DNA from: a virus | Taxonomy: Duplodnaviria; Caudoviricetes | Length of the DNA: 64,000 nucleotides | IMG/VR virus record: IMGVR_UViG_2531839014_000003 | Span: 101,424 to 165,423 of that record | Direction: 5' to 3' (one strand) | Shown here: positions 4,432 to 50,472 of the stretch, in pieces | How the letters are laid out: each line of letters begins with the position of its first letter | Position numbering within the stretch: the first letter of the stretch is position 1 | Position numbers and translations under genes: made by a program | Notes under the pieces: generated by a model | Told to the model about the DNA's origin: nothing | Database searches by the model: none | The model's input: the letters and a program-made list of their open reading frames with translations, nothing else

Positions 4432-7194
4432 ATGGAGGCGATAGTAATAAGTGAATACGGTATTAAGATAAAAAATATTAGTGCTGGCATGATATACGAT
4501 GTCAATTTGGGTATACGAGATTATTTTTCATATACCGATGCCATGCTAAATAATAGTTTGTTTAGTTTTTTTCTACAGAAAAACGGTATGAATGTATATA
4601 AAGGAGAAAGCACGAGAGATATAATTTGTTTAGATTATGATTTCGGAAGTCGTTCCTACGAGGAAGAACGAAAACGCCTGGAAAAACTATTTAACGAGTC
4701 CGATGAGTCTTCAAGAAAACGAATCTCAGATACATTGAAAAAAGTAGATTCCAGAAAAGAACTCTATACTCCAAAGAAAAGAGATGAAATCCGAGAATTT
4801 TTTTATGAAAATGGTGTGGATGTTACTTATAGAAAAAAGAACAAGGATGGCTCTATAAAAGAGGAAAAAATTATACATTATGAAATGCTGTTTAGAACAA
4901 GTGCAAAAGCAAAGTTAGGACAAGTAATCTTCATCAATAGTAAATTATATGATAAAGCATATGACTGGTTAACTATTGGACTTGGGAACAAAATGCAATA
5001 CGATAATGCAAGAATCGTAGAAATGTCGGCCTACGCCCCACTTACCACATCTACTATTGTTGGTACATTATACGTTCCTGTCGAGAATATATTAATTTTA
5101 AAGGACCAAGAGTCCTTTTTCAAAACAAAAAGTAAGGTTGTAAAAGCTGAAGAATATGAAGATTCACATGGGCAAAAGCAAAAAAAATGCATTGTTGTAG
5201 ATGAAGAACGAGAAGTTAAAAATACAATATGGGATGGGATGATGCTAATCGAGTCATCAATACTTCCAGATTGTATTAATGGCATGGCTCTACTACGTAA
5301 TCATTTATTTAAAGCATGTGGTTTTAGAAGTCACATTCAAAAATTCTTTGCAGATTGGTGTAATAAGAGTGGATATGATTATCAAACCTATCAAATTCAG
5401 GATATGTTTGGTAAATGGCATTATTTGAAGGATATCAAGATGATTACTACGGATAATGCTATTAAGTGGAAAAAGTTTGCTAATTTAATGGGTAATACGT
5501 TATCAGAAGCCTATGAATATTGGTGCGACAGAATTCATGCCGATGGTGATATATGGGGTATTGTCAAGACGGACCATCCTAGCAAACTAGGAAATTATCA
5601 ACAATTGAGCTATCAGATGATCAATACTCTTCCGTGTACAAAAGATGACATTAAAGAAATTGCTCAGATAAGTATTAACTATGTGGAACTGTTAAAAAAA
5701 GATAATGATGAATTTGAGAAATTTCTTAGAAAATACGCCAATGAAGTAAATCATTATGAGATGCTTGCAGATTTATATAAGCATAACCAAGATTTTGGTA
5801 ACAGCTCATTTTTCAGAGAAGAAAAAAAGAAAATTATATTTGATTATGTATACAGGCTAAGAAAAGGCAAGATACTAGTAAATGGAGATAATCTAACAGT
5901 ATGTGGAAATCCGTATGCTCTCCTACTTTATTCTGTCGGAGAAGATTATAAGACAGACCCAACCTTGAAACAAGAAAATGGAACAATCCAATGCTATACA
6001 ACCAGATTTAAAAATGATGAATTTCTAGCCGCTTTTCGAAATCCACATAATAGTCCGAATAATATCTGCTATCTTCACAATGTTCACTCTGACATAATGG
6101 AAAAATACTTCCCTTTTAGCGACAATATAATCGCCGTAAATTGTCTTCTTACTGATATTCAAGATAGAGCCAACGGAATGGATGAAGACAGTGATTTTAT
6201 GCTTGTGACAAATCAGGCAACTATGGTACGTTGTGCCAAAAGATGTTATCAAGAGTATCCTACTATTGTCAACGCATTAAAAGAATCTGGAATTACATAT
6301 CAGAATACCAAAAAGGATTATGCTATTATGGATAATAAATTCTCTAAATCTCGTATGGATATTGGGTATTCTAGTAACCTGGCTCAGCTCGCAATGACTT
6401 ATTATTGGACTGAGATGCAAAAAGAAACTCCTGATAAAAAAAGGCTGAATGAATTGTATGATAATTTTGTAATACTGTCTGTATTGGCCCAAGTCGTAAT
6501 TGATGGCTGTAAACGAGAGTATGAAATTGTTGGAAACAAAGAAATTGACCGTATTAGTAAAATGCCGTGTATGACTATCAAAAAGCCTTGTGGTTTTACA
6601 AAGACAGGTAAAATCAAATATACCAAGTGTGATTTCCCAGAGTTTATGAAATATACAAGGGAAATCAAGTATACTAAAGATGGTAAAGAATTACCCCAAG
6701 AGGAGATTGATGTAACCAAAGAAAAGCTCAAAGGAAGAATCAATACAACGCTCTCATGCCCTATGAATTGGTTAGAGTATTGGTTAGATAAAATTCAAAA
6801 TGCGCCAACAACAAAAACAACTCCTACTTCAGAATTTTTTATTAAAATGCAAGGAAAAGCACATCATCGACAAATGACTAAAATCAAAGAATTAATAATA
6901 GAGTATGATTCAAAGGTTAAATCGCTCCAATATAAAAGCATATCTGAGGATGATTACATTTCTGAACTATATCAACATAATGATTATCTAATTGAATCTC
7001 TAAAAAAAATAAAAGTAGGGAATATTGTTACCATCAATCGGTTAATAGAAACAGCACTTGGTTTGGAAACTAATAAAAACAAAAAATACTCACAAAATGC
7101 TGATACGAAATACACAAGAAAGATACTTAATTACTTATATAAAATGAATAGAGATAAGTTTCTTGTAAATTTTGAACAAAAACGGCAGAGTTAA
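4432..7194 (+). CDS. yonO: YonO-like single-subunit (two-barrel) RNA polymerase
   Basis: 920 aa; RNPH motif and GMDEDSDF catalytic loop (DxDGD variant); position ahead of late genes as in SPbeta. Confidence 0.88.
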   Translation: MEAIVISEYGIKIKNISAGMIYDVNLGIRDYFSYTDAMLNNSLFSFFLQKNGMNVYKGESTRDIICLDYDFGSRSYEEERKRLEKLFNESDESSRKRISDTLKKVDSRKELYTPKKRDEIREFFYENGVDVTYRKKNKDGSIKEEKIIHYEMLFRTSAKAKLGQVIFINSKLYDKAYDWLTIGLGNKMQYDNARIVEMSAYAPLTTSTIVGTLYVPVENILILKDQESFFKTKSKVVKAEEYEDSHGQKQKKCIVVDEEREVKNTIWDGMMLIESSILPDCINGMALLRNHLFKACGFRSHIQKFFADWCNKSGYDYQTYQIQDMFGKWHYLKDIKMITTDNAIKWKKFANLMGNTLSEAYEYWCDRIHADGDIWGIVKTDHPSKLGNYQQLSYQMINTLPCTKDDIKEIAQISINYVELLKKDNDEFEKFLRKYANEVNHYEMLADLYKHNQDFGNSSFFREEKKKIIFDYVYRLRKGKILVNGDNLTVCGNPYALLLYSVGEDYKTDPTLKQENGTIQCYTTRFKNDEFLAAFRNPHNSPNNICYLHNVHSDIMEKYFPFSDNIIAVNCLLTDIQDRANGMDEDSDFMLVTNQATMVRCAKRCYQEYPTIVNALKESGITYQNTKKDYAIMDNKFSKSRMDIGYSSNLAQLAMTYYWTEMQKETPDKKRLNELYDNFVILSVLAQVVIDGCKREYEIVGNKEIDRISKMPCMTIKKPCGFTKTGKIKYTKCDFPEFMKYTREIKYTKDGKELPQEEIDVTKEKLKGRINTTLSCPMNWLEYWLDKIQNAPTTKTTPTSEFFIKMQGKAHHRQMTKIKELIIEYDSKVKSLQYKSISEDDYISELYQHNDYLIESLKKIKVGNIVTINRLIETALGLETNKNKKYSQNADTKYTRKILNYLYKMNRDKFLVNFEQKRQS

Positions 7195-7535
7195 ATTGTA
7201 AAAAGTGCTTGTTTTTAAGGCTTTTTTGAGCCAAAAATGCGTCCGTTATATGGAGAGCAAAAGAAAATACAGTGTTGTATGAGTAAACTCCACCGCTATT
7301 GCCCGAAGCGGTTATAAATATGGGAGACAGTCTTAAAATGTATACTAGGGGCGGACGTATCATTATTCGCCCCAAATACAATTAATTTAGAACTATCGTG
7401 ACGACCAGACATCAATAAATTAATCATTGGTAGCGGTGCTGTTATAACAACGGTATCGCTATTAGTGTTGCATAAAACAAATCAATCAAAATTTAATAAG
7501 GTTACTATTAGGGGAACCGTTACTAATTAATTTAT

Positions 7536-36012: not shown

Positions 36013-38101
36013 ATGAACGATAGTTTCAAAATATTTCTTCAAGCTATTATTGACGATAGTAGTTTAACCAAAGTTCAAAAAGACTTAGCAAAAAAGAGAT
36101 TAGAAATCCAAGCTGATATTGATTTTTCAGATTTTGCAAAGAATAAGGCTGATATCGAAAAACAGTTTCGAGCGCTATCAGGAATCATTAAAGATATACT
36201 TGGAGATGCTGTTTCTGATAAACAAGCTGTTCAATGGGCCAAGCAGTATTATAAAGAAATTGAGTCCGGAGCCAAACAGGCTGTTAAAGAACAGGAAAAG
36301 CTAGTAAATGCTATGGCGAAAGGACGTGAGTCTTCAGAACAAGCACGTCAGGCAGAAGAAAAGCGCCATCAACTTGCCCAGGATAAAGCTGTAAATAAGG
36401 CGCTTGAGGAAGAATATAACCTACGCCAAAGAATTGCAAATAAGTCAAAAGAAATTCAGCTCGGAATCGATACAGAGAAATATTCAACCCAGATTGTCTC
36501 AATCCAGCAACAGTTAAGTAAATTTGGAATTGAAAGTGGAGAATCATTCTTACAAGCAAGTGCCGCATTGAAACAATTAGAGGCTGCTTATAATGATATG
36601 AAATTCTCTAGTGGTGATAAACGATTAGATTATGAAAAAGAATACCAGAAACTTCTTGAGAAAACAAAAAATCTCATAACACAAATTAAAAGCCAAAAGT
36701 CAAATGAGATAATTTCTAACGGAGACAATCGTCGTATATCCCTTATAAACGAATTAAACAATTATCTTCAAAAGAATACTGCCATGACTAAACAGTCTAA
36801 GCAGCAAATCATTGAATGGATTAATACACTTAATTCTGCTGATGATATGACAAGGGGTACTTTTGATAATCTCAGGGCGCAATTTAAAGGTCTGGATGCT
36901 GAACTGCGCGCAATGAATAAATTGGGATTATCCTGGACCGATAAATTCAAACAAGCTATTGAGAAGTTTGGTGGCTGGGCACTGGCCACTGGATCGGTTA
37001 TGGAACTTTGGCATTGGCTTAGACAGATGCCACAAGTGGTACGAGAATTGGATACAGAATTGGTTGATTTAAGAAAAACAACCACTGCAACTTCTAGTGA
37101 ACTGAAACAGTTCTATAGCGAATCTAATACTACTGCTAAACAACTTGGTGTTACAACAAAAGAAATAATTAGTCAAGCAAGTGAATGGTCAAGACTCGGT
37201 TATGCCATTAAAGATGCTCAAACTATGTCTAAAAATTCTGCCATTTTAGAGGCTATATCTCCAGATCTAAGTATTCAAAAGGCAACCGATGGATTAGTCA
37301 GTACACTTAAGGCATTCCGCTTGGAAGCAGATGATTCATTGGATGGTATTATTTCTAAAATAAATATCATTGGTAATACACAGGCAGTTTCTAATGGAGA
37401 TATTGTAGATATTTTAACCAGATCATCTTCTGCTATGGCCGCCGCAAATAATACATTAGAACAGACAATTGCGCTAGGTACGGCAGCGACAGAAATCACA
37501 AGAAATGCGGACGCTGTAGGGACGGCTTTAAAGACTATTTCCATGAGGATTCGAGGTTATGACGAAGAGACGGAAGAATATATAGGAAATATTGAGCAAT
37601 TATCGGGTGAAATAGCAAGCTTGACCAAATCTGCCTCTACACCTGGCGGCATCAGTTTATTTACTGATGATTCCAAAGACACATATAAGTCTACGTATCA
37701 AATTTTAGACGATATTAGCAAAATTTGGAATGAATTGACTGACAAAAATCAGGCTCAACTTCTTGAAGTTTTGGCAGGAAAACGGCAGGGGCAAATTGTA
37801 TCTGCTATGATATCTAACTTTGATACTGCGAAAACTTCGCTGGATTCCATGACAAACTCTGCTGGCAATGCTATGCAGGAAATGGAAGTAATTTATGATT
37901 CACTGGATTATAAATTAAATCGCTTGTCTGAAACTGGTACTGGTATTGCTCAGAATTTATTTGACAGAGATGTCATGAAAAATACTGTTGATGGATTTAC
38001 CACAATCGCTGAAGTTATCGATTTTGCCACTGAAAAGTTAGGTCTATTAGGTACATTATCCGTGGGCGCGAGCGGAATATTTGGCGCAAAGGGATTAGGG
38101 T
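36013..38101 (+). CDS. Tape measure protein, exon 1 (unspliced frame stops at 38109)
   Basis: TP901-type TMP core (EWSRLGY, VGTALKTISMRIRG, LAGKRQ). Confidence 0.9.
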
Positions 38102-38535
38102 TAACGTAAGTTACTCGTCATAGTTTACAAGCCCCCTACTACAAAATAGTGGGTGTTCTACGATTTGGTCGTTCATCGAGTAGACTAATCCTTGGATTTA
38201 AATCCTAAATAAGTCGAATATCGGGGGAAGCCGTAAGCCTATCAATTAGGTACTGATAACGCTGCAATAAAAGCTCCATGTGGGTGCGTTACAGCTAAGT
38301 ACAATTGTACAAAAATGGTGGTCCCGACGCGGTATATGTTTTACGTGTAGAATGTATATATCCATAATATATCGCGCGAGAGGCTGACAAGACATGGCCT
38401 GGTTTGATACCAGACTGTAATATACATGATCCGTAACCGTGGCGAAAGGCTGCGTGAAGCGAACAGGGGAGCGAACAGTAGTTGCTACTGCCCTGCTTAG
38501 TACAAATTATACACATCTATTTCTGGCTTGGAAAC
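38102..38535 (+). ncRNA. Group I ribozyme core (P1-P9), P7 imperfect
   Basis: P4 TCGGG/CCCGA; P5 GCCGT/ATGGT; P6 CGCGGTATAT/ATATATCGCG; R-like CGAGAGGCTG; P8; P9 CGTGGC-GAAAG-GCTGCG. Confidence 0.8.
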
Positions 38536-38550
38536 GGGAATGGAATTTAG

Positions 38551-38802
38551 TTATTCATTGGTTAACCATAAGCCTAACATATATGCTTCTGCCTTGGCTT
38601 TGTTAACCGGAGTTAATTTATTATATATAAAGAGAATGTCGTCCTGTGTTTTTATGTTTTCATCTTCGGCATAAAATTTTGACATGGTGATAAAAATATT
38701 GTAGATATTGTTTGGTGATGCATTCATTTCGCGGGCAAGACGATAGAGACTCCAACCACGTTCATGGCAAAGCTGTTTGATACGTTTCAATTCATAATTC
38801 AT
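38551..38802 (-). CDS. XRE-family HTH protein (possibly internally deleted)
   Basis: RIKQLCHERGWSLYRLAREM. Confidence 0.7.
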   Translation of the reverse strand: MNYELKRIKQLCHERGWSLYRLAREMNASPNNIYNIFITMSKFYAEDENIKTQDDILFIYNKLTPVNKAKAEAYMLGLWLTNE

Positions 38803-38904
38803 TACAAATTCCTTTATATATATTGTATCTGCTCTTCTATTTTGATAAAATTAATCTACACCCCTAACTTGACAAAATCATATAATAATAAATGAGGTGG
38901 TTAT

Positions 38905-39468
38905 ATGAATAAATATTTTAAAGTTGCAATGTTTTACACATCTTTTATACCACTGTGGATTACCATCTTGTTTATTGATGTATTAAGCCTCATAAGAGAT
39001 GGTTCTAATCCATATACAGAAATAATAGAAATAGTACTCATTTTATTAGGCCTTATCTTTTCCATACTAATTATTGCTAAGATGATTACTAACGTATCCC
39101 ATGAACATGGAGTTAGGTATAAAATCATAGACGCACAGCAAGAAACAGGAATAACATCTGAATTTTTACTTTCATATATACTTCCGCTTTTTGCTTTCGA
39201 TTTCACTCAATGGGACGGAGCAATTATGTTCTTGGTATACTATGGCATTTTAATGTTTCTATGTGTAAGAAATAATAATGTTTATGCAAATCTTATTTTT
39301 GAATTTAAGAGCTATAAGTTCTATAACTGTGAACTTCAATGGATTGCGGAGCCAGACGTTCCCACCACGCAGTCAATGATTATCAGTCAAAGCAATTTAT
39401 GCGCCAATAAAGGAAATACTGTAGAGATTATTTGCTTAGATAAACCATTCTATCTCACGAAGTCTTAA
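38905..39468 (+). CDS. KwaA-like multi-TM protein
   Basis: Four TM segments, EFLLSYILP; adjacent to KwaB-like gene. Confidence 0.55.
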   Translation: MNKYFKVAMFYTSFIPLWITILFIDVLSLIRDGSNPYTEIIEIVLILLGLIFSILIIAKMITNVSHEHGVRYKIIDAQQETGITSEFLLSYILPLFAFDFTQWDGAIMFLVYYGILMFLCVRNNNVYANLIFEFKSYKFYNCELQWIAEPDVPTTQSMIISQSNLCANKGNTVEIICLDKPFYLTKS

Positions 39469-40399
39469 GAGGCATGGACATAGGTACTTCACATAAGCTG
39501 TCTTCTGTCAGTTCTCGCTTTGCCTTACCACATATGCCAAGAGTAAAATTCTTGGCATTTTGGGGATTCGATAAATCAAACTTTTTATTCTTTTTATCAT
39601 ATGGTATTCCAAATATCTTTGCAAACTTTTCTCTGCTTGTTGGCTTTTTTAGATAGTTAACAACCTGAGATGAATAAGATATAAATTTTTTTGGTGTCTG
39701 TCCTTTATTTGCATAGGAAACGTATTCATCAAAATCTTCAATCATATCCATCGTTTCCAACTCATTTAAATGTTTTTGGCAGATTTTTTTATGAGAGTAT
39801 TCAAGGTTAAACACCGATTCACAATTCGAGTTTATCATATATATCGCATTACTATAAATAATAGCATCGAAACAACTTCCGAATTGAACCATCGGTTCAG
39901 TTACTTCAGCTAGTGTATTTAATCTTGACACAAAAACTGAACGTTTTGACTTTTTTAGATTAACAATTGGATTACGTTTAGTTAGCAAATATAAGTTACT
40001 ATCCTCTCCATCATCATTTTTGTATATTCCAACAAAAATGTACGCTCCTGCCTTAATCTCATCTATCTTTTTGGAATCATCATGGTCCTGTATATGCCGT
40101 AATAATGCTGCCCACTGAGTGTTTATAAGTTCATCACTCATATCAATTTTGTCAATAACTCCTTTTGAATTAAAACCTGTATATTTGATTACCTTTTCAT
40201 CAAAGGCTTCAATATTTTTTTCAAAAGTAGTTTTTTGACGAGATACAACTGTATTTATAAGATTAACTGGTTCAAAATATAATGGATAACATGTATACTC
40301 ATTCGGATGTGTCTTATGGTTATAATGGATTAGGAACAGAGACCATTTTGTAATTTTGTCTATTTGATTCAAACCCTCTTTTAAAATAGCATATGACAT
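39455..40399 (-). CDS. KwaB/DUF4868-like protein
   Basis: 314 aa; FDAII...ESVFNLE pattern; pairing with TM gene. Confidence 0.6.
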   Translation of the reverse strand: MSYAILKEGLNQIDKITKWSLFLIHYNHKTHPNEYTCYPLYFEPVNLINTVVSRQKTTFEKNIEAFDEKVIKYTGFNSKGVIDKIDMSDELINTQWAALLRHIQDHDDSKKIDEIKAGAYIFVGIYKNDDGEDSNLYLLTKRNPIVNLKKSKRSVFVSRLNTLAEVTEPMVQFGSCFDAIIYSNAIYMINSNCESVFNLEYSHKKICQKHLNELETMDMIEDFDEYVSYANKGQTPKKFISYSSQVVNYLKKPTSREKFAKIFGIPYDKKNKKFDLSNPQNAKNFTLGICGKAKRELTEDSLCEVPMSMPLKTS

Positions 40400-40540
40400 T
40401 GTAAACCTCCAAATATACCTACAGATTGATTCATATTAAATGCGCTATACCCCCTCCCTTATTCTACCATAATCCGACAAAATCTGGTAGCACTATTTTA
40501 AATACCATACAAGTAAAGTTATATTTTGTTATCTAATAGA

Positions 40541-40564
40541 AAAGAGACTATTTCTAGTCTCTTT
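40541..40564. terminator. Bidirectional hairpin, cassette boundary 1
   Basis: AAAGAGACTA-tttc-TAGTCTCTTT. Confidence 0.8.
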
Positions 40565-40626
40565 AAAAATCACTCTTGCAGTGATTACAATGCCATTGCT
40601 TACTTGCTTTTCCAACAGCAAATACA
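40563..40626 (-). pseudogene. Zn-ribbon gene 3' remnant 1
   Basis: VFAVGKASKQWHCNHCKSDF*. Confidence 0.7.
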
Positions 40627-40660
40627 CAACGACTAAAATATGTAGCAAAGGAATAAAATT

Positions 40661-40819
40661 ATGGATAAAGAAAAAGAAATTAAAAAAGAAGACTTAATCA
40701 ATCAGTTTGAGTTGTTGAAAAAGTCTTCCGATGAAGTATATAAAAATCGAGAATTTGATTCATTGTCAAAATTGAGTATGGCAATGATTGAGTTATACAA
40801 GACTATTATGGCGTATTAA
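40661..40819 (+). CDS. Small hypothetical protein
   Basis: AAAGGA SD; MDKEKEIKKEDLINQF, 52 aa. Confidence 0.55.
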   Translation: MDKEKEIKKEDLINQFELLKKSSDEVYKNREFDSLSKLSMAMIELYKTIMAY

Positions 40820-40986
40820 CCGCTTATTTGCCAGAGATATAATGGTATTACTCTTAAAAATAGTGTGACTAGTGTTTAGGAGTAAGTGTGTTATCAAAAG
40901 TGTGACTTGTGGATAACATACAAGACCACCAATATTGCGGGGCTTAGTGTGACTAATGCTCCGCTTTCCATATTTTATAATTATTT

Positions 40987-41010
40987 AAAGACACCAATTA
41001 AGGTGTCTTT
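40987..41010. terminator. Bidirectional hairpin, boundary 2
   Basis: AAAGACACC-aattaa-GGTGTCTTT. Confidence 0.85.
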
Positions 41011-41015
41011 TAACG

Positions 41016-41075
41016 TTACCATTTCGCTCCACAGTTTTTACATTTAAATTGACTTCTAGCTGTTTTGATAAACAA
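41016..41075 (-). pseudogene. Zn-ribbon gene 3' remnant 2
   Basis: LFIKTARSQFKCKNCGAKW*; last 9 aa identical to the 45326 gene. Confidence 0.8.
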
Positions 41076-41199
41076 TAGCTTTTGGTGCACTTTTGTTCAC
41101 CTTGCTATATTATTACGCATTTTTTTGTTTAACTTGATGGTGTTCATTTTCCAAGAATTGTGTATAATATAAGTAAGGAATCTTATTTGATTCTGTTTC

Positions 41200-41322
41200 G
41201 AGACATGGTTCAGGAGTGTCTGGCTAAAAATAACCTGAAAATATTGCGAGGGGTTTATTGCTGTCACCTGGCTAATAAAAAAGCAAAAAATTATGTAGGA
41301 AGCAGAAATGCTTCCTATTTTA
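41200..41322 (+). ncRNA. Type III antitoxin RNA (two pseudoknot units) plus terminator
   Basis: AGACA/TGTCT with TTCAGG/CCTGAA; AGG/CCT with TTGCT/AGCAA; shared CTGGCTAA; hairpin TAGGAAGCA/TGCTTCCTA. Confidence 0.72.
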
Positions 41323-41334
41323 CTAGGAGATAAA

Positions 41335-41823
41335 ATGGGAACTGCTATATATTGTTACATAGTTAATCAATTTTATTTAGATTATCCTCACCTTAAGAAT
41401 ATACTGGATGAATTTGATGAATCTAAACATAATGTAAGAACCCATTTGTGCCTAAATCTAAAATATAACAATTGTAACGTATTAGTACCGCTAAGGAAGA
41501 AACTAGGTGAACCTGTAAGAGTATTCGGAAGAATAGGGTTTTCGGTTCCAAGTCAATCCAAGCCAAATGCTGGTTTAGATTATAGATATACAATGATAAT
41601 AAATAATCCAAAATATTTTAGATATGATATTCCACGAATAACGAACAAACAACAATTGATTATAAATGAAAATTATAATATAATTCAGAAACAAGTTATC
41701 GAGTATATTGATTCATATGTTAAAGTAGCAAATAAAGACAGAGTAGATAAAACCGCACGATTTCGAGTTTCTAGTTTAATAAATTTCAATTCTGAACTTA
41801 ACGTAAGGCTAAAGACACCTTAA
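41335..41823 (+). CDS. Type III TA toxin (ToxN/TenpN-like endoribonuclease)
   Basis: LVPLR, GLDY..MII motifs; repeats-terminator-toxin layout. Confidence 0.78.
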   Translation: MGTAIYCYIVNQFYLDYPHLKNILDEFDESKHNVRTHLCLNLKYNNCNVLVPLRKKLGEPVRVFGRIGFSVPSQSKPNAGLDYRYTMIINNPKYFRYDIPRITNKQQLIINENYNIIQKQVIEYIDSYVKVANKDRVDKTARFRVSSLINFNSELNVRLKTP

Positions 41824-41834
41824 CTGGTGTCTTT
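41811..41834. terminator. Bidirectional hairpin, boundary 3
   Basis: AAAGACACC-ttaact-GGTGTCTTT. Confidence 0.85.
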
Positions 41835-41847
41835 TTATGATTAATTT

Positions 41848-41910
41848 AAAATCACTTTTACAATTATTGCAATGCCATTGTTTACCAACTTTGCCCATAG
41901 CAAATACACC
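41848..41910 (-). pseudogene. Zn-ribbon gene 3' remnant 3
   Basis: GVFAMGKVGKQWHCNNCKSDF; homologous to remnant 1. Confidence 0.72.
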
Positions 41911-41930
41911 ATATCGTAGTACCACCTACT

Positions 41931-42659
41931 TTATTGGATTATTTTTACCACCACACCAATAATCTGATACTCATCGTTTGAGTAAGCTCTTCTATCATCT
42001 TCAATGCATTCTTCATTGTCGGATGAAAACCAAATACAATCCTCTCTGGGTTTATACCGTTTACAGAGTATATCGCCTTTAAAATTTGCTATTACAATTT
42101 CATTATCAAGATTGAATTCGTTGAATTTTGGATTAACCAGTACAAGTGCACCGTTTTGAATACCAGGTGACATACTTTCACCATTTATCCTGACTCCATA
42201 TACTGCTTCAGATGGAATATCGTCTGATACAATATCCTCCATTTGGTACTCGCCGTCTCTACCGAGTATACCTGCGCCGGCTGCGGCCTCTTGGTCATAA
42301 ACAGGAAAACGATAAATACTTTTACTATTTATTTGATTATCCGAAGTGTCTACAAAACCAAAAATAAAATCAACAATCCTTCTATTAGACATAGAAAGAT
42401 TATTGTAGGCATCTAAAATACGCTGATCTTCTTTTGATAAGGAATCAGCAATATATTTTAGCTCGTCTTTCATAAAATAGTGTGCATCTACCTTTAGCTT
42501 ATTACATATTTCGATAAAATCATTGTAAGTGGGCCTATTTTCCCTATTTTCGTAGGCAGATATGGTTTTTACACTGACATTTATAATTTGAGCCAATTCC
42601 TTTTGAGTAAGATTGTTCTTTTTTCGATATTCTTTTAGTCGGCTTCCAAAATCCATCAT
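41931..42659 (-). CDS. CI/LexA-like repressor (XRE HTH + S24 peptidase)
   Basis: HTH; AAAG cleavage site; GESM serine; CKR lysine. Confidence 0.9.
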   Translation of the reverse strand: MMDFGSRLKEYRKKNNLTQKELAQIINVSVKTISAYENRENRPTYNDFIEICNKLKVDAHYFMKDELKYIADSLSKEDQRILDAYNNLSMSNRRIVDFIFGFVDTSDNQINSKSIYRFPVYDQEAAAGAGILGRDGEYQMEDIVSDDIPSEAVYGVRINGESMSPGIQNGALVLVNPKFNEFNLDNEIVIANFKGDILCKRYKPREDCIWFSSDNEECIEDDRRAYSNDEYQIIGVVVKIIQ

Positions 42660-42707
42660 AATCTCCTGTCCGTATGGAATACTATTATTATAAGCTAATT
42701 AGAGAAT

Positions 42708-42789
42708 AAAGTCTATAAATAATATCCTTTATGTTGACATTCTATATTTAGTAGATTATAATAGTAAAAGTATATAATTTATAGACTTT
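42708..42789 (+). promoter_or_regulatory. Consensus sigma-A promoter flanked by 13-bp inverted operators
   Basis: TTGACA 42734, N17, TATAAT 42757; AAAGTCTATAAAT 42708 / ATTTATAGACTTT 42777. Confidence 0.8.
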
Positions 42790-42862
42790 ATTTTACATGG
42801 TAGGGGCATATTTAAATTGATTTACTTGGTATAATCTGGTAGAATGAAAGGAGTACGGAGGT

Positions 42863-44395
42863 ATGGGAATGTTAAAATCTATTAGTTTAGAAAATTATAA
42901 ATGTTTTAAAGATGAGACTACAATCGATATTGCCCCACTTACGGTATTGTGTGGGGCTAATAGTTCTGGAAAATCTTCTATATTAAAAAGTTTACTAACA
43001 CTAAAACAAAGTGTACAAAGCAATAATTCTGAAGACTATCTAACATTAAATGGCGAACTTGCTGATATTGGTAACTTTAATGATATAATGTCAAGATGTT
43101 CTAGTAATAATATATCAGATACATTTGAAGGTTTGCAATTAGAAGATATAAAATCTAAAGTAATTTCATTTGAAAACACTTTTAGAATTAACAACTATCG
43201 AAACAAAAATATTGGTAAATATATACCTTATCAAGATGCAGCTTCTTATAAAGAATTAAGAAGATTATATAATAAAGAGCATTCCCCAATTAATTCATTT
43301 GAAATAACACTGAAACTTAATATCTCTTTACCTGATGATGTAGCCGATGATTCTTTCTCAAAATTTATATATTCAAATCATTTAGTAAAATATAAAATCA
43401 ATATCAAACTTTTTGACATAAATAATTGTGAAATAACTAGGCGTTCTGGAGTTATCGAATATGAAAATAATATTTTACATTACGAAAACATACCAACCAA
43501 CAATTCTATTAGTGAAAAAGGACACTTGAAATGTAAATGTAGTTTTTCATCGTTGAAAATAAATAATATATATTCAAATTTTTTTGAAGACTATAAATCT
43601 GTATTATATAATATAATGGCTATATCAAAAATTGCCTCTAATCAATTTCTAGGTATTAATTACATTGCTCCTCTTAGAAATAATCCTGAACGTGATTATT
43701 TTATAAAAGGCAACTCAAATACTGTTGGAATTTATGGTGAATTTACACCTACAATAATTGCAAAAAATGTAAATGAGGATATTTCTACAGAAACTTTTCC
43801 TCCTATTTTTGAAGACTGTTTTTTAAAACATGATATGGAGTCTATAAACTTTTTCCATCTCCTATTGCAGTGGACTGATTATTTCAATTTTGGTTCATTG
43901 ACTCTTAATGGTACAAATGGGCATATTGATTTAAAAATTGGAGAGCAAAATATTGTTGATGTCGGGTTTGGTGTTAGTCAAGTATTACCAATAATAGTAC
44001 AAGGACTTATTATGGATAAAGAGCAGTCTTTATTATTAGAGCAACCAGAGATACATCTACACCCAAAATTACAAATGAGAATAGCAGATTTTTTTATTGC
44101 AATGGCACAGTCAGGGAGAAGTTTAATTATTGAAACACATAGTGACCATATAATAAATCGTATAGTTAGAAGAATACTTGAAGATAATACTAACACGATA
44201 AATGATTTAGTTCATATATATTATTTAGAAAAGGAAAATAAATTTGAGCAAACAAAAATAACTCCCATTAAAATTGATTCCTGTCGTGGTATTATCGATT
44301 GGCCTGACGGGTTCTTTGACCAATTTCCGAATGAACAGGAAAAAATCATACGTGCTGGTATAGAAAAAAGAAGATATCTTCGTGAAAAAATCTAA
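42863..44395 (+). CDS. ABC-type ATPase (AAA_15/21 + DUF3696-like)
   Basis: GANSSGKS, VGFG, LLLEQPEIHLHP, ETHS, WPDGFFDQ. Confidence 0.88.
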   Translation: MGMLKSISLENYKCFKDETTIDIAPLTVLCGANSSGKSSILKSLLTLKQSVQSNNSEDYLTLNGELADIGNFNDIMSRCSSNNISDTFEGLQLEDIKSKVISFENTFRINNYRNKNIGKYIPYQDAASYKELRRLYNKEHSPINSFEITLKLNISLPDDVADDSFSKFIYSNHLVKYKINIKLFDINNCEITRRSGVIEYENNILHYENIPTNNSISEKGHLKCKCSFSSLKINNIYSNFFEDYKSVLYNIMAISKIASNQFLGINYIAPLRNNPERDYFIKGNSNTVGIYGEFTPTIIAKNVNEDISTETFPPIFEDCFLKHDMESINFFHLLLQWTDYFNFGSLTLNGTNGHIDLKIGEQNIVDVGFGVSQVLPIIVQGLIMDKEQSLLLEQPEIHLHPKLQMRIADFFIAMAQSGRSLIIETHSDHIINRIVRRILEDNTNTINDLVHIYYLEKENKFEQTKITPIKIDSCRGIIDWPDGFFDQFPNEQEKIIRAGIEKRRYLREKI

Positions 44396-44410
44396 GGTGG
44401 ATTAATTTCT

Positions 44411-45298
44411 ATGAATTTAATTTTCGAACCTGATAAACTATTTACAACTATTGAAGTATGGAATAATGAAGTAGAACGGGATACATTTTTAAGCTCATTA
44501 TTAGATGTCTTAGATTATGTAAATAACCATGATGATATTTACATTTTATGGAATGATGAAATTGCTTCTTTATTGTGGGAAACAAATATACATCCCTGGA
44601 AATTAGATAAAAGTTTCTATAAATCAATTATGCCTAGTATTTCTCATATATTATATAAAAACACACTAGAAATATCGTTAGAAACTTTTGACCATGTAAT
44701 GGAATGTAATCCAGATTTTACAATAGATATTGCAGATATACACATCAAAGAGAATTTTTATCACATGTTGCACCAGGTTATTCATAATAACGAGGTGCCA
44801 AATATTTTGGTTACAAGTAAAAATGATAAAGAATTTAATTTGATTTGTTTCAATGTAGAAGATTCTATTATACCGTTAGTTTTTACCAATTTGACAAATG
44901 ATTTCGTGATTGATAATGAATTTGACAAGGCGTGGGGTAGCCTTTCATCATCTTGTATTATAGAATTAATTAATAAAGTACATAACGAAATGTACTATAC
45001 AGATAAAGTATATCTGTATGATTTTTGTTTTGATTCAAAATTTATTAAAGATATAAAATCTATTAACTCAACAAAATTAAGAATAAAAATCATAACTCAG
45101 ATAATTAAAAAACTAGTGTTTTCATTTACAATCACTCAAAATGATAAATCGTTAGATGATGAAATGATAGGTGAATTTACAGGTAGATTTAGAATATCTC
45201 AAGGAAAACGAATAGAATATATTTATCAAAATAATCAAATTATATTCACACGTTACTATTCTGAAAGCCAGCATGATGAAGGAATACGGCATACATAA
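44411..45298 (+). CDS. Putative effector with C-terminal RelE-like domain
   Basis: FDSKFIKD...RFRISQGKRIEY...HD; operonic with ATPase. Confidence 0.45.
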   Translation: MNLIFEPDKLFTTIEVWNNEVERDTFLSSLLDVLDYVNNHDDIYILWNDEIASLLWETNIHPWKLDKSFYKSIMPSISHILYKNTLEISLETFDHVMECNPDFTIDIADIHIKENFYHMLHQVIHNNEVPNILVTSKNDKEFNLICFNVEDSIIPLVFTNLTNDFVIDNEFDKAWGSLSSSCIIELINKVHNEMYYTDKVYLYDFCFDSKFIKDIKSINSTKLRIKIITQIIKKLVFSFTITQNDKSLDDEMIGEFTGRFRISQGKRIEYIYQNNQIIFTRYYSESQHDEGIRHT

Positions 45299-45322
45299 AA
45301 GACACCAAATTAAGGTGTCTTT
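45298..45322. terminator. Bidirectional hairpin, boundary 4
   Basis: AAAGACACC-aaattaa-GGTGTCTTT. Confidence 0.85.
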
Positions 45323-45325
45323 TAT

Positions 45326-45760
45326 TTACCACTTAGCTCCGCAATTTTTACATTTCATTGTATTTCTAACATCGCTGCTAAATAATCCAAACATGGCACC
45401 TCCAAACGCTTTCTTAGTCATTGAAATTTTCTCTATGTTTGTTGAACCGCAAGTTGGACACTTTGGTGTATTATCAATCTTCTGCTTTAATGGAAGGTTG
45501 ATAACACTTGGTATTTCTTTTTCCTGTATAATTTTTTCTACTACTGGTTTTACATGAACTATATCGCTTTTACTAATCTGAATTAAATCTCTTACTTTAT
45601 ATAAAACACTGTATGACTCGTCTAATAAAAAAGATAAATCGTAATCAGTACCATTTACTTTACATATGTTGTTATTATTAATTGGATATCCGCAATGTAT
45701 ACATTTATCTGATTTATCAGAAACCTCTTTACCACATTCTGGGCAATGAATTAGTGACAT
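45326..45760 (-). CDS. Double zinc-ribbon protein
   Basis: GGAGGAG SD, ATG 45760; CPECG, CIHCG, CPTCG, CKNCG. Confidence 0.85.
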   Translation of the reverse strand: MSLIHCPECGKEVSDKSDKCIHCGYPINNNNICKVNGTDYDLSFLLDESYSVLYKVRDLIQISKSDIVHVKPVVEKIIQEKEIPSVINLPLKQKIDNTPKCPTCGSTNIEKISMTKKAFGGAMFGLFSSDVRNTMKCKNCGAKW

Positions 45761-45829
45761 ATAATACTCCTCCAATATAATTATATTGTTCCAAGCTCTA
45801 TATTTATATTTTATCAGAATTTACAATCG

Positions 45830-48800
45830 TTGTAAACAATGACGCTGATAAAGGCTGGACTACTATATTTAGCAAATTCAAAAAAGAAATTCCTGAAATA
45901 AGTTCAGAAGTTAAGGAATTTATTGATTTACTGAATTCCGACCCAAATAGTAAATTGTGGAAAACTGATGAATTAATAAATTTTGCAAAAGAATGCAAAG
46001 TAACAGATAATGATTTTATTAAGTTCCTATCAACTGCCGACACATCTGGCGATTTAATGGTACAGTATCAGAAACACTTGCAATCCGCTTCCACCGCTAC
46101 ATCCAAATTCGGTGCAGCCCTAAAATCAGCCGCCGCTAATATTGGTATTATGTTGGCAATAAATGTTGGAATATGGGCCGCTGGTAAAGCTTGGGACTAC
46201 TTTGTTAACCGTGTTGAAAATCTCAGAAAAGCAGCTGAAGAATCTGCAAAAAAGTATTCTGATTTAGAGACAGAAATCAGTTCCATTAATTCAGAATTAG
46301 AATCTACGAGTAAACGTATTGATGAATTAAATAAGAAAGAGCATCTTACATTTGTTGAACAGGATGAACTTCAAAAGCTCAAAGAAACTAATGAGGAATT
46401 AGAACGCCAATTAGGAAACCGAAAAGCTTTAGCTAATGTTGCCAAGCAAGATGCGAACGAAAGGGCAAAGGAATATTTTGACAGTCAAGGTTCCGGAACA
46501 AGATATGCTGGTTGGGATATGTCACAAGTTGAAGTTGGAAATACCACATATGGTCAGGCCATTCCAGACATGTATTTTGGAAATCAGCTTGAAGTAGCCA
46601 AACAGAAATTAGATGACTATGAAAACCTACTTCAGCAAAAGGCAGATGTTGAAAAACGCTTATCAGATTACCAGGTGTCCAATCCAACAAATTATGAAAA
46701 ATCAGACGAATACCAAAATATAGTCTTAGAATCAAACGCAATTAGCAATGCTCTTGATGTACTAAAAAAGAGTCTTACTGATTCCATAACAGACTTCGAT
46801 AAATTTGATGACAGTTTAGATTTGGAGAATGATAAAGCTTATATTGATTCACTAAAAGAAATTTCCGATGGATATCAGAATTTATTTGGTGGAGGAAAAT
46901 CTGCAACCCAATCCTTTGACGACATCTGGAACGCTGATACATTCTCCAAAGCACGAAAAGAACTCGAATCAATGGCTCAGGCCGGAACCCTCTCCCCTGC
47001 AACTTTAAGCAATAACGAAACCTATAACCAGCTGTTAAAAGAAACAGGGAAAACTGCTGAGGAAACCTGCGAAAATATTTATGCCTTAGTTGAAGCCGAA
47101 AAATCAGCAAGTAATGTTGCTAAGTCAAGTTCTTTCACTGATATCTTCTCTTCTCTTCCAACCGATAAGCTTGAGGAATATATTGCCCTTGTTAAAGATG
47201 GAGTAATTGACGAAAAGACGATTGGAAACTATGAAGAGTTATCCAAAGCAATGTCCCAAACTGGAACATCTGCGGAAGAAGCAATCAAGGCAATCAAAGC
47301 TTATTCAGAAGGTTTTAAATCCTCAACTGAACTTACACAACACATCCAGGAATCCTATGACCTTCTTACAAAGATACAAAAGGAAGTTGATAAGACAAAA
47401 CAGGTTAGTCTAGATTCCTTAAACTCTATTGCCAAACAATATCCAGAACTTACAACTGCAACAGCGGAATATGCCCAAGGTCTTATTTCAACAGCAGACT
47501 TAATGGCCTTGTTAGAACAGGCGTATAACAATGATGCAAATGCCTTCAGAACTGCTATGGCTGCAAAACTTGATGGTAATGAAGTATTCTTTAACACCAT
47601 TAAGCAGAATAACGAGGGGTTATTTACTGCTCTGGCTAAAGCGTATGGCGTCGATGTTGGCAACTGGAAATCCATGGCTCAAGCCAAAGCTGAAATAGAC
47701 CAAGCATTAATACAGAAACTTGGAGCTGCATGGGGACAATATTATGGTGTTGTAATTGACCAGGCAACAGGTCTTGCATCTCTGATTAATAAGACTCCAA
47801 CGACTGGCTTAACAGCAGAACAGAGTGTTGACCTAATAGTTGCACGTACAAATGCAGAGTCAATAGTTAGTTCTTTTAACCATGCTAAAGAGGCAATGGA
47901 CAAAGCGGCACAGATTGAAGTTAACTTGCCTAATTTTGGTGGTATTGGTGGCAAATCCGGTTCCGGAGGCTCCAAAGGTTCCAAAGATAAAGAGCCTACT
48001 GAATTTGACTGGATGGAACAGAAAATCACCAATCTTGATTCCCAAGTAGATAAGCTCAAAACAAATATAGAATCTCTTGTCGGCTACAGGAACAAGAACT
48101 CCATGACCCATACTGCTATTGATGTACTGACGGAAAAGATGACAGTCCTTCAACAGATGCATGATGAGTATATGAAAAAGGCAGGTGGACTTGGCTTATC
48201 CCAGGAGTATATTGATAAGATTCAGAATGGCACTATTGAGATAGAAACAATCAGTGACGAAAATCTTGCGAAGGTCATTAAGGAATATCAAGACCTGTAT
48301 GGCAAAGCCAGTGATGCGAATAAACGGATTCTTGAAACTAAAGATGTTATCCATAACCTCAATTTATCCAAATTGGATCATATCATAAACCAATTTGAAC
48401 AGATGACGGATATCCAGTCTAAAATGATTGATACCGAAAAGCAGCTTATAGATTTACGTGAAAAATCCGGAGAAGAAATCTATGCTGATGACTATATCTC
48501 ACTTGCTGGTAAACAGTTAAAGCTAACTCGCCAGAATGCAGATGCTTATAACACTCTCGCTGCTGAAATGGAAAGTATGGATTTACAGGAAGGTACGGAA
48601 GAATGGAAGAAATATAACGACCAGTTACAAGAATACAAGAACAATATGATTTCTGCTGCGGATGCCATAGAGCAATATAAAGATTCAATGACGGATTTAG
48701 TCTATAAGGGTCTTAGAGACTTTACAAATACAATGGATTCCATCAATGGAACCATCAGTACAATGAATGACTTAATCGGAAACACTAATCTTGTTAATGA

Positions 48801-50472
48801 ATTTGGAAGTTTAACAGACCGTGGATTGGCCCAAGTTGCTTTATATGCCCATCAGATGTCGAACGCAAAACAGGAAGCTGCTGAATATGCAGAAGCTATC
48901 AATTCGCTCGACGATGCTTTAGATAGCGGATTAATCACTCAGGATGAATACAACTCAATGCTCCAGGAGTACACTTCTGCCCAGGAAAGCGCCGTAAAAT
49001 CAAGTAAAGAAGCCATGGATGCAATTCTTACTCTTGCCAAAGAAGGTATACAAGCTGAAATCGATGCGAAGAAAAGGCTGATTGACGAGACTAAAGCGGC
49101 TCTTGATGCCGAAAAAGATTTGCATGATTATCAGAAATCAATTACCGAGAAACAGGACAATATTTCAAGGTTGGAACGTCAAATTGCAGCCTTAAGTAAT
49201 TCCACCAATCGTAATGACATAGCCCAGAGATTACAGCTACAAAGTCAATTGGCAGACGCAAAAGAAGAATTATATGAACTACAGTATGACCATGAAATTG
49301 AGCAGCGTAAAAATGCTCTGGATGATGAGTATAATGCGTTTGAAGAATCCAAACAAAAGGAATCTGAAGAACTTGATACAAATCTGGATGCACAGAATGC
49401 AGCTATCAACAAATATCTTGACCAGGTAAAAAACAACTACTCTACTGTCTACGGAGTCCTGACCCAGTATGGAGATGAATATAGTCTAGCGGCTATTGAG
49501 GACCTTACCAAACCATGGGAATCTGGAAGTGAAGCAGCTGATTTATGTGCAAACGCAATTGGCGATGCAGTAGCAAATATCCAGTATGAAATTGATGGTC
49601 TTGACTTTAGTCCGCTTTATGAACTGGTAGATTTACTCAATCAGATCGGAATGGGTGGATACGGTGGTGGTTCTTCTGGTTACGAAGATGTAACTGACCA
49701 AGGAAGATGGCAGAAAGGCAAGGGTGGAAAATGGTGGTATGGAAACTCTAATGATGATTATGTCTCAGGAGATATTTATACCATTAATGGAAAACAGTAT
49801 GGCTTTGATGATAATGGATATATGGTGACAGGATGGCGTGACGACTTTGGAGATTGGCGATACTTTGAACCAGAGAATGGTGAAATGGTTAAATCCCAGT
49901 GGCGCAAGTCCCGCGATAATCAATGGTATTATCTTGATAAAGATGGTATCATGGCTACCGATATGGCTGTTAAGGCTAGGGAAAAGGATGGATATTATTA
50001 TCTTGATGATGATGGCAGGTGGGATGGAGATACATTAACTGCTGAGCAGGTTAGAAAACTTGGATATACAATTGGGTATAAAAATGGTACAAAACGTATT
50101 TCTCATGACCAGCTTGCGTGGACTCAGGAAAACAAACCTGAACTAATTACACGTCCAAGTGACGGAGCTTTATTGACTCCACTGAAATTAGGCGATGGCG
50201 TAATAAATGGGGATTTGACTCAGAACCTTTTAGATATCGCTGGAAATCCGAATAGATTTGTTGAAGATATTGTCGCTCGGTCGATGCCTAATTATAAGAT
50301 ACCAGAATTTGATATAGTGCGGAATCAACCCGTGGCAATTAATTCCCCTCTTGTACAAATTGACGGTACTGGTCTGTCCGCTAGTGAAGTCTCTGCAATC
50401 ATAAAGAATGAAACCCGTGATATTGATAAACGGGTTGCCAAAAGTATTAGATATGAACTGATGGGTAAATAA
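45830..50472 (+). CDS. Tape measure protein, exon 2, with cell-wall-binding repeats near C-terminus
   Basis: Frame open from 45781 with no SD/ATG; coiled coil; WWY/YGFD/WYYLD repeats. Confidence 0.85.

What the first reader, a model, noticed from the sequence alone, without database searches (positions are those of the whole stretch)
38521..45844. Cis-splicing through five terminators, or trans-splicing of two RNAs?
Seen: the cargo has plus-strand-competent terminators (40541, 40987, ~41296, 41811, 45298) and antisense genes. Only ~42 nt of intron (45788-45829) precede exon 2, and P10 is unusually long. GTGACA (45754)-N16-TATAAT (45776) would start a transcript at about 45787-88, exactly where the 3' pairing arm begins. 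Inference: the halves may be transcribed separately and assembled in trans through P10 and the closing helix, or the phage YonO-type RNAP reads through. Caveat: AATATAATTATATT is palindromic and may simply be the -10 of the antisense Zn-ribbon gene.
Basis: inference. Interest (0 to 1): 0.75.

Follow-up and report, generated by a model that had tools for sequence, protein, structure and literature searches.

The report
Cargo-laden tape-measure intron: cis-splicing favoured
A gut-bacterial prophage's tail-length gene is split by a 7.7-kb self-splicing-type intron full of defence genes; comparison with relatives suggests the phage's own RNA polymerase reads through it in one piece, not that two separate RNAs are joined.

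Summary
The observation largely holds. Hairpins sit at all five stated positions, and four have a sense-strand T-run; 40541 is essentially an antisense terminator. Only 41 nt of intron (45789-45829) precede exon 2. P10 is long (14 of 15 bp). GTGACA-N16-TATAAT (45754-45781) scores 11/12, with a predicted start at the 3' arm.

The element belongs to a widespread, Rfam-invisible group I-like family in tape-measure genes of Lachnospiraceae SPbeta-like phages. Its parts are a 430-nt 5' ribozyme, a cargo bay, an antisense zinc-ribbon gene and a short 3' tail. In 13 copies (1.0-7.7 kb) P1, P10, P7 and the 8-bp cargo-closing helix co-vary, the intron ends in G, and the exons join in frame.

Trans-splicing is not supported. 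The sense promoter occurs only in win, L070 and L075/L077, the latter three with small cargo. It is missing from the 4-6 kb relatives. It overlaps the zinc-ribbon gene's start codon and ribosome-binding site.

What is conserved is an antisense promoter, TTTACA-N17-TAxxxT, straddling the 3' splice site. The phage encodes a YonO-family RNA polymerase, so cis read-through is favoured (about 0.6). No RNA data exist. This scan has already found cargo-laden tape-measure introns in at least 18 other genomes.

The parts
4432..7194 (+). YonO-family single-subunit RNA polymerase gene (920 aa), upstream of the structural gene block on the same strand
   Evidence: phrog_8308, E 4.8e-87 over 116-807 of 847. 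SPbeta YonO itself is phrog_8308, E 0.
36013..38101 (+). Tape-measure exon 1, ending ...GGGU
   Evidence: PhageMin_Tail domain. Colinear with the Sundance tape-measure protein. Open frame across the junction.
38102..38533 (+). 5' ribozyme part of the intron (P1 to P9.1), ending in the 5' arm of the closing helix
   Evidence: Family alignment. 86% of cells paired against 33-44% in slid controls; 25 pairs with changes on both sides. P7 compensatory change.
38116..38134 (+). Internal guide: P10 strand 38116-38130, then P1 strand GCCC 38131-38134 (G38131 pairs with U38101)
   Evidence: P1 co-varies G-C to A-U in L057 and L076, and U.G to C.A in L053, L060 and L073.
38526..38533 (+). Closing helix, 5' arm GCTTGGAA
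   Evidence: Pairs with 45789-45796. Co-varies to ACTTGCAA/TTGCAAGT in five relatives.
38534..45788 (.). Cargo bay: HTH gene (-), KwaA-like (+), KwaB-like (-), small ORFs, 162-aa ORF (+), S24/LexA-like repressor (-), NsnB-like AAA_15 ATPase plus 295-aa ORF (+), zinc-ribbon gene (-)
   Evidence: Pfam and PADLOC.
40541..40562 (-). Hairpin; good T-run only on the antisense strand
40987..41011 (.). Hairpin AAAGACACC...GGTGTCTTT with a moderate T-run on both strands; one of three repeated copies
41296..41317 (.). Hairpin with TTTT after it in the sense direction
41811..41834 (+). Strong sense-strand terminator-like hairpin
42734..42762 (+). Perfect TTGACA-N17-TATAAT promoter-like site ahead of the NsnB-like operon
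   Evidence: 12/12.
45298..45323 (.). Bidirectional terminator-like hairpin between the + operon and the zinc-ribbon gene
45326..45760 (-). Antisense zinc-ribbon gene (144 aa), the one gene conserved in every copy of the intron family
   Evidence: Alignment of 10 copies with invariant Cys pairs.
45754..45781 (+). Sense promoter-like GTGACA-N16-TATAAT. It overlaps the start codon (45760-45758) and ribosome-binding site (45767-45773) of the antisense gene.
45789..45796 (+). Closing helix, 3' arm TTCCAAGC
45808..45836 (-). Conserved antisense promoter TTTACA-N17-TAAAAT (with TG). Its -35 lies in exon 2 and its -10 in the intron tail.
   Evidence: Same geometry in L070, L075 and L054 and in 8 of 10 distinct tails.
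45829..45829 (+). Terminal G of the intron; 3' splice site after it
   Evidence: G precedes the P10 target in 13 of 13 copies.
45830..50472 (+). Tape-measure exon 2; first 15 nt form the exon strand of P10; no start codon or ribosome-binding site of its own near the junction

Best explanation
The 7,728-nt insert is one continuous group I-type intron, spliced in cis. During lytic growth the phage's YonO-family RNA polymerase transcribes the late operon, including the whole intron. It passes the cargo's hairpin terminators and antisense genes. The 5' 430 nt fold into the ribozyme. Once the far end is made, the 8-bp closing helix (38526-33 with 45789-96) and the 15-bp P10 (38116-30 with 45830-44) bring G45829 and exon 2 to the core, and the exons are ligated to give ...GLG-FVNND....

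Shown: the anatomy, co-variation of the pairings, open frames across the junction in 13 copies, and the presence of the polymerase gene. Inferred: that this polymerase transcribes the tape-measure gene, that it ignores these terminators, and that splicing occurs at all.
For: Exons 1 and 2 are colinear with an uninterrupted 2,528-aa tape-measure protein. About 28 related phages have a continuous gene.

Thirteen copies of the same intron, 993 to 7,728 nt long, all end in G. They keep P10 at 13-15/15 bp and the closing helix at 8 bp, 30-35 nt from the splice site. All give an open frame across the junction.

Compensatory changes are seen in P10 (win against L050), the closing helix (GG/CC to GC/GC), P1, P7 (L082) and many core helices.

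The architecture is the same whatever the cargo size. Relatives also have sense-strand terminators in their cargo, for example L054.

A YonO-family polymerase gene sits at 4432-7194. SPbeta YonO makes one long late transcript with little pausing and lacks the flap used in hairpin termination (PMC5467207). The SPbeta late operon itself contains an opposite-strand gene, yonI, and an annotated stem-loop.

The identical intron is present in two isolate assemblies and many sequencing runs, so it is not a private lesion.
Against: No RNA evidence of any kind. Rfam's group I model finds nothing, even in sensitive mode. Terminator read-through by YonO-type enzymes has not been shown directly. The window's copy has a mismatch in the short P3 helix: A38212 where 19 of 20 relatives have U. 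It also carries the bulged P7 variant CAUGAUCC, which might lower activity. A good sense promoter does sit exactly at the 3' arm.
Confidence: 0.6

Rival explanations
1. True trans-splicing. Exon 1 plus the ribozyme is made as one RNA that ends at a cargo terminator. Host RNA polymerase starts a second RNA at about 45788 from GTGACA-N16-TATAAT. The two associate through the closing helix and P10 and are ligated.
For: The promoter scores 11/12, with its -10 ending 7 nt before the arm. Only 0.2% of cargo windows score as high. P10 and the closing helix are stable enough for bimolecular pairing, at -15 and -13.4 kcal/mol. Natural trans-spliced group I introns are broken in the same peripheral region, P9/L9 (PMC2731911). 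Four sense-competent hairpins lie in the way of a cis transcript.
Against: A comparable promoter (9-10/12) with the same geometry occurs only in L070 and L075/L077, whose introns are 1.0-1.3 kb; L067, at 4.1 kb, also scores 9/12 but with a different -10 position. L054 and L063, two of the 4-6 kb relatives that would need it most, score 7-8/12, no better than background. The hexamers overlap the antisense gene's start codon, ribosome-binding site and leader, which explains them without a sense function. The conserved antisense promoter faces it, with overlapping footprints. Long P10 and the closing helix are family traits also found in 1-kb introns, so they are not adaptations to a split state.
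Confidence: 0.12
2. Cis transcription, then assembly in pieces. The precursor is made in one piece but cut inside the dispensable cargo loop, for example by RNase III at sense/antisense duplexes or by a cargo-encoded nuclease. The halves stay together through the closing helix and P10.
For: Antisense promoters and genes in the cargo would give double-stranded RNA with the late transcript. The closing helix isolates the cargo as a loop that plays no part in the core.
Against: Purely inferential; no cleavage site is known. The 162-aa ORF proposed elsewhere as an RNase toxin has no Pfam or PADLOC match.
Confidence: 0.13
3. This copy no longer splices. The prophage is tail-defective or cryptic, and the insert is simply a defence island sitting in a dead gene.
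For: P3 mismatch at 38212. P7 variant with two bulges. No Rfam match. In one isolate the cargo has taken in further IS elements.
Against: Both exons (698 and 1,546 codons) are fully open, and exon 2 has no start of its own. The P7 variant is shared by nine diverged copies, all with intact exons. The identical intron is widespread. CheckV estimates the provirus as 91% complete.
Confidence: 0.1

Closest known systems
IStrons (CdISt1, BcISt1; Tourasse, Stabell and Kolsto 2014, PMC4227781)
   Same: A group I ribozyme occupies the 5' end. Foreign genes are inserted at one fixed place downstream of the P9 subdomains and are flanked by complementary arms that form a stem. Only a short tail precedes the 3' splice site. 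The whole element is spliced in cis from mRNA.
   Different: The cargo here is not an IS. No TnpA or TnpB was found. Instead there is a conserved antisense zinc-ribbon gene plus changeable defence and toxin-antitoxin-like genes. Size is up to 7.7 kb, against 0.48-2.58 kb. No P7.1/P7.2 hairpins were seen. The element sits at one site in a phage tape-measure gene rather than being transposed around a genome.
Group I introns TMP-IVS1, 2, 3a, 3b in tape-measure genes of Bacillus cereus-group prophages (Tourasse and Kolsto 2008, PMC2504315)
   Same: Group I introns in phage tape-measure genes, inserted in frame, with a stop codon within the first few codons of the intron, and mostly lacking a homing endonuclease gene.
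   Different: Those are ordinary small IA1/IA2 introns related to known phage introns. This family is not detected by Rfam and carries kilobases of cargo with its own promoters and terminators.
Trans-spliced (discontinuous) group I introns of organelles (Isoetes cox1i1305, PMC2731911; Prasinoderma rrnL, PMC3873408)
   Same: The ribozyme core P1-P8 lies in the 5' half, the break or insertion is in the P9 region, and a short 3' piece carries the 3' splice site.
   Different: In those the halves lie at separate loci and must be transcribed apart. Here they are colinear on one strand, 7.2 kb apart, inside one operon. No bacterial or phage case is known to me (own knowledge).
Giant mitochondrial group I intron ND5-717 of corals (PMC6545197)
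   Same: A group I intron with many genes (18-19 kb) in one peripheral loop.
   Different: [quoted passage not shown]
Phage T4 sunY (nrdD) intron (Michel et al. 1992, recalled from memory, not checked here)
   Same: An ORF separates the catalytic core from a short 3'-terminal piece, whose arrival is said to activate the core. That would be a plausible timing device here too.
   Different: About 1 kb, a sense-strand endonuclease ORF, and no internal terminators or antisense promoter.

Membership tests
Group I intron | 5' exon ends in U (rarely C) that forms a wobble pair with the internal guide in P1 | tested here: met
   GGGU/GCCC with U38101.G38131. The -2 pair co-varies G-C to A-U in L057 and L076. 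U.G changes to C.A in L053, L060 and L073.
Group I intron | P10 pairing between the guide sequence and the start of the 3' exon, next to the P1 strand | tested here: met
   14/15 bp in the window and 13-15/15 in relatives, with a compensatory U-A to C-G change in L050.
Group I intron | Intron ends in G | tested here: met
   13 of 13 copies.
Group I intron | Conserved core P3-P8 with P4-P6 stack and P3/P7 pseudoknot | tested here: inconclusive
   P4, P5, P6, P7, P8 and P9 are placed in the right order. P5a, P6, P8, P9 and P9.1 co-vary, and overall 0 of 500 shuffles reach the observed values. P7 has a compensatory change in L082. P3 is only 3-4 invariant pairs and is weakened in the window's copy. 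The subgroup was not assigned.
Group I intron | Match to the curated covariance model (Rfam RF00028) | tested here: not met
   No hit at E up to 10 in the window's 5' part, nor at gathering threshold in 7 related loci. No positive control was run.
Group I intron | Guanosine-dependent self-splicing | not testable with these tools
   Needs in vitro transcription with GTP and Mg, or RT-PCR.
IStron | Insert at the 3' end of the ribozyme, downstream of P9 subdomains, flanked by a stem | tested here: met
   Cargo lies between the closing-helix arms, after P9.1. Layout compared with PMC4227781.
IStron | Cargo is an IS200/IS605- or IS607-type element (TnpA/TnpB) | tested here: not met
   No transposase domain in the window's cargo or in relatives' cargo.
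Trans-spliced group I intron | The two halves are transcribed from separate promoters | tested here: inconclusive
   A promoter-like site exists in the window but is not conserved across the family and does not track cargo size. Transcription itself was not observed.
Trans-spliced group I intron | Halves encoded at separate genomic loci or on different strands | tested here: not met
   Both halves lie on the + strand in order, 7.2 kb apart, in all 13 copies.
YonO-type RNA polymerase | Full-length membership of the YonO protein family | tested here: met
   Same PHROG as SPbeta YonO: E 4.8e-87 against E 0. Direct BLASTP similarity is weak. No catalytic motif was checked.

The most novel reading that the evidence does not exclude
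In vivo the intron works as a two-piece ribozyme. The 3' arm plus exon 2 is supplied as a separate RNA, either started at 45788 by host polymerase or released by cleavage of the cargo loop, and is joined to exon 1 through the closing helix and the long P10. This would be the first natural trans-acting group I splicing in a bacterium or phage.
Probability: 0.12. Interest if true: 0.85.

Novelty: new variant of a known kind. Interest (0 to 1): 0.55.

Why it matters
An essential late gene can only be expressed if 7.7 kb of foreign genes is transcribed and removed, despite their own promoters, terminators and antisense transcription. That makes the phage's tail production depend on polymerase processivity and on long-range RNA pairing.

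The family shows how a group I intron can serve as a safe, swappable storage bay for defence genes. One short sequence also does double duty: the first bases of exon 2 are both the P10 target and the -35 of the promoter that expresses the cargo in the lysogen.

If YonO-type polymerases ignore intrinsic terminators, that would explain how such islands can sit inside operons. The cis-or-trans question is directly testable, because cultured isolates carry the identical prophage.

Tried and rejected
- **Rfam.** Scans at gathering and E-value thresholds over the window, the 5' part alone, L003 and seven related loci found no intron family.
- **Single-sequence folding.** Folding the 5' part gave z = -0.17, uninformative.
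- **Similarity searches.** blastn of the ribozyme against phage records found no match. tblastn of the exon 2 start against phages found no match.
- **First RNAalifold run.** It failed because the alignment was badly anchored. It was replaced by a hand-built structure tested with pair counts. In that test my P7 columns were off by one, and P7 was re-examined separately.
- **Intron-less allele.** A search for the predicted junction at DNA level found none in viral or genome contigs. A junction-peptide protein search only reached proteins up to 2,000 aa, so it could not see a 2,245-aa continuous protein.
- **'P7 is damaged in this copy'.** Rejected as a private lesion, because nine diverged copies share CAUGAUCC.
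- **Other readings.** A two-gene tape measure without splicing was rejected, because exon 2 has no start codon or ribosome-binding site near the junction. A group II intron, intein or transposon insertion was considered and dropped, for lack of any matching feature.
- **Literature.** The search for the sunY paper failed.
Full report
**What is there**

The window is part of a 165-kb provirus record estimated at 91% complete. It is an SPbeta-like phage. Its tape-measure protein resembles those of Brevibacillus phage Sundance, Enterocloster phages and SPbeta-like Bacillus phages.

The ORF at 36013-38109 (698 aa, PhageMin_Tail) and the frame open from 45781 to 50472 are colinear with the single 2,528-aa Sundance protein. 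The first matches residues 699-1079 and the second matches residues 2080-2221. Exon 2 has no in-frame ATG and no ribosome-binding site near its start. Of 48 related viral loci, about 28 have one continuous gene of 2,200-3,100 codons, and about 20 stop at this same point. So the gene is split by a 7.7-kb insert.

**Is it an intron?**

Rfam finds nothing, even when given only 551 bases at E up to 10, and nothing in related loci. I therefore tested the idea by comparison.

A 23-nt core motif (38213-38235) occurs in 23 viral contigs and 10 bacterial genome contigs. The bacterial contigs are from Lachnospiraceae and include Mediterraneibacter hominis NSJ-55. Aligned, these copies share about 430 nt.

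The start of the insert has the layout of a group I internal guide:
- Exon 1 ends GGGU.
- G38131-C38134 pair with it, forming a U.G wobble at the splice site.
- The 15 nt just 5' of G38131 (38116-38130) are complementary to the first 15 nt of exon 2 (45830-45844) at 14 positions.

I used each copy's guide to predict its own 3' splice site. This found a site in 13 copies, always preceded by G. Joining the exons there gives an open frame in all 13, reading ...G|[F/I]VN[Y/N]D....

Compensatory changes are seen in several pairings:
- P1: G-C to A-U, and U.G to C.A.
- P10: U-A to C-G, between the window and L050.
- P7: GAGGCUG/CAGUCC to GAGGCCG/CGGUCC in L082.

A hand-built core (P3 to P9.1) was scored on 20 distinct sequences. 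It gave 86% paired cells against 33-44% when partners were slid. It had 25 pairs with changes on both sides, against 4-13 in the slid controls, and none of 500 shuffles reached the observed values.

I conclude it is a group I-type intron of a family that the curated model does not recognise. The subgroup is unassigned, and P3 is short and invariant. The 5' splice site is after U38101, not after the stop codon. The intron is 7,728 nt long.

**Family architecture**

Every copy has four parts in order: the 5' ribozyme, a variable cargo, an antisense zinc-ribbon gene of 137-169 aa, and a short tail.

The cargo is closed off by an 8-bp helix, GCTTGGAA/TTCCAAGC in the window. This co-varies to ACTTGCAA/TTGCAAGT in five relatives. 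It lies 30-35 nt from the splice site in all of them.

Intron length runs from 993 nt (L070, the closest relative, with only the zinc-ribbon gene) to 7,728 nt. Other cargoes include GNAT, MazF-like, DUF2513, trypsin-like and DUF3800 genes. The window's cargo has KwaA- and KwaB-like genes, an NsnB-like ATPase and a LexA-like repressor.

This is the IStron layout (PMC4227781) without the IS. Group I introns in tape-measure genes are known (PMC2504315), but not with such cargo.

**The observation**

Hairpins exist at all five places.
- In the sense direction, 41811 and 45298 are good terminators.
- 40987 and 41296 are moderate.
- 40541 is essentially antisense-only.

Three of the hairpins are copies of one sequence. 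Two of them are followed by remnants of a zinc-ribbon gene tail, which fits stepwise accretion of cassettes.

The sense motif GTGACA-N16-TATAAT is real. It scores 11/12, and its -10 ends 7 nt before the 3' arm.

**Cis or trans?**

Four points speak against separate transcription as the designed route.

1. The promoter does not follow need. It scores 9-10/12 with this geometry in L070 and L075, whose introns are 1.0-1.3 kb. It scores only 7-8/12, at background level, in L054 (4.1 kb) and L063 (6.3 kb) and in two of the small introns; L067 (4.1 kb) reaches 9/12 but with its -10 3 nt from the arm.
2. Its -35 is the start codon plus the next codon of the zinc-ribbon gene. Its spacer holds that gene's ribosome-binding site, and its -10 lies in that gene's leader. 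The motif therefore has an independent explanation.
3. The 1-kb introns have them too.
4. What is conserved at the 3' end is an antisense promoter, TTTACA-N17-TAxxxT, often with an extended TG. Its -35 is the complement of the first bases of exon 2, and its -10 lies in the tail. Its footprint overlaps the sense motif.

In favour of cis, the phage encodes a 920-aa protein of the same PHROG as SPbeta YonO, upstream of the structural genes on the same strand. YonO transcribes the 37 SPbeta late genes as one operon, pauses little and lacks the flap domain used in hairpin-dependent termination (PMC5467207). That operon already contains an opposite-strand gene and an annotated stem-loop. Relatives also have sense terminators in their cargo, so read-through is a need of the whole family.

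None of this is RNA evidence. Bimolecular assembly is energetically feasible and has organellar precedent, with the break in the same region (PMC2731911). A mixed route, cis transcription followed by cleavage of the dispensable loop, is also open.

**Condition of this copy**

The P7 3' strand reads CAUGAUCC (two bulges) instead of CAGUCC. This form is shared by nine diverged copies with intact exons, so it is a lineage variant and not damage.

The window does have a mismatch in P3: A38212 where 19 of 20 relatives have U. However, the identical 449-nt ribozyme and the 7,728-nt intron are found in an isolate assembly and two sequencing runs. A second isolate carries the same ribozyme, with extra IS elements in the cargo. 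So the mismatch is fixed in a widespread prophage.

**Verdict**

The trans-splicing idea is not supported but not excluded (about 0.12). Cis read-through by the phage polymerase is the best reading (about 0.6).

The same kind of cargo-laden tape-measure intron has been reported by this scan in at least 18 other genomes. New here are the conserved antisense promoter across the splice site, the lack of any link between the sense promoter and cargo size, and the YonO-family gene.

Noticed in passing
window 45830-45838 and 45808-45813: The first bases of exon 2 (TTGTAAAC) serve at once as coding sequence, as the P10 target, and (in complement) as the -35 of the conserved antisense promoter. Three constraints fall on one 8-mer, which may explain why it is nearly invariant across the family.
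   Followed up: partly
L053, L060, L073 (5' splice site): These copies have C at the last exon position and A in the guide: a C.A pair in place of the U.G wobble. It is a rare double change that keeps the wobble geometry.
   Followed up: no
L078 (contig CAJUIP010000069.1), two copies at about 698-2011 and 5958-7223: Two copies of the intron lie about 5 kb apart on one 10-kb contig. Each follows the same exon 1 end and leads into a different exon 2. This could be a duplicated tape-measure segment or alternative 3' exons.
   Followed up: no
L003, L021, L035/36/38; L008, L040/41, L007, L039; L011-13, L030, L045, L047; L006; L042/43: At least four further, mutually unalignable insert families interrupt the tape-measure gene at the same K-N-x-G site in other phages. 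None is recognised by Rfam. Several loci also have a second interruption upstream (stop-to-stop ORFs of only 199-278 aa).
   Followed up: partly
L089 13443-16435 and 21405-22061 (GCA_006538465.1): In one isolate the same intron has acquired an IS256-type transposase inside the KwaB-like gene and an rve-type IS near the 3' end. The cargo bay is still growing there, and the defence gene is broken.
   Followed up: no
window 40563-40627 / 41845-41909 and 41016-41076 / 45326-45386: Remnants of zinc-ribbon gene 3' ends follow repeated terminator hairpins. This looks like the scar of repeated cassette insertion next to that gene.
   Followed up: partly
window 7847-9295: A beta-CASP / metallo-beta-lactamase RNase-like gene lies just downstream of the YonO-like polymerase gene. 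It could be an RNA-processing partner for long late transcripts.
   Followed up: no
window 38905-40399: The KwaA-like and KwaB-like genes are convergent and overlap by 14 nt, unlike the usual co-directional Kiwa operon.
   Followed up: no
window 42705-42792: A 26-nt inverted repeat (92% complementary) flanks the perfect TTGACA-N17-TATAAT promoter, between the LexA-like repressor gene and the NsnB-like operon. It is a likely operator.
   Followed up: no
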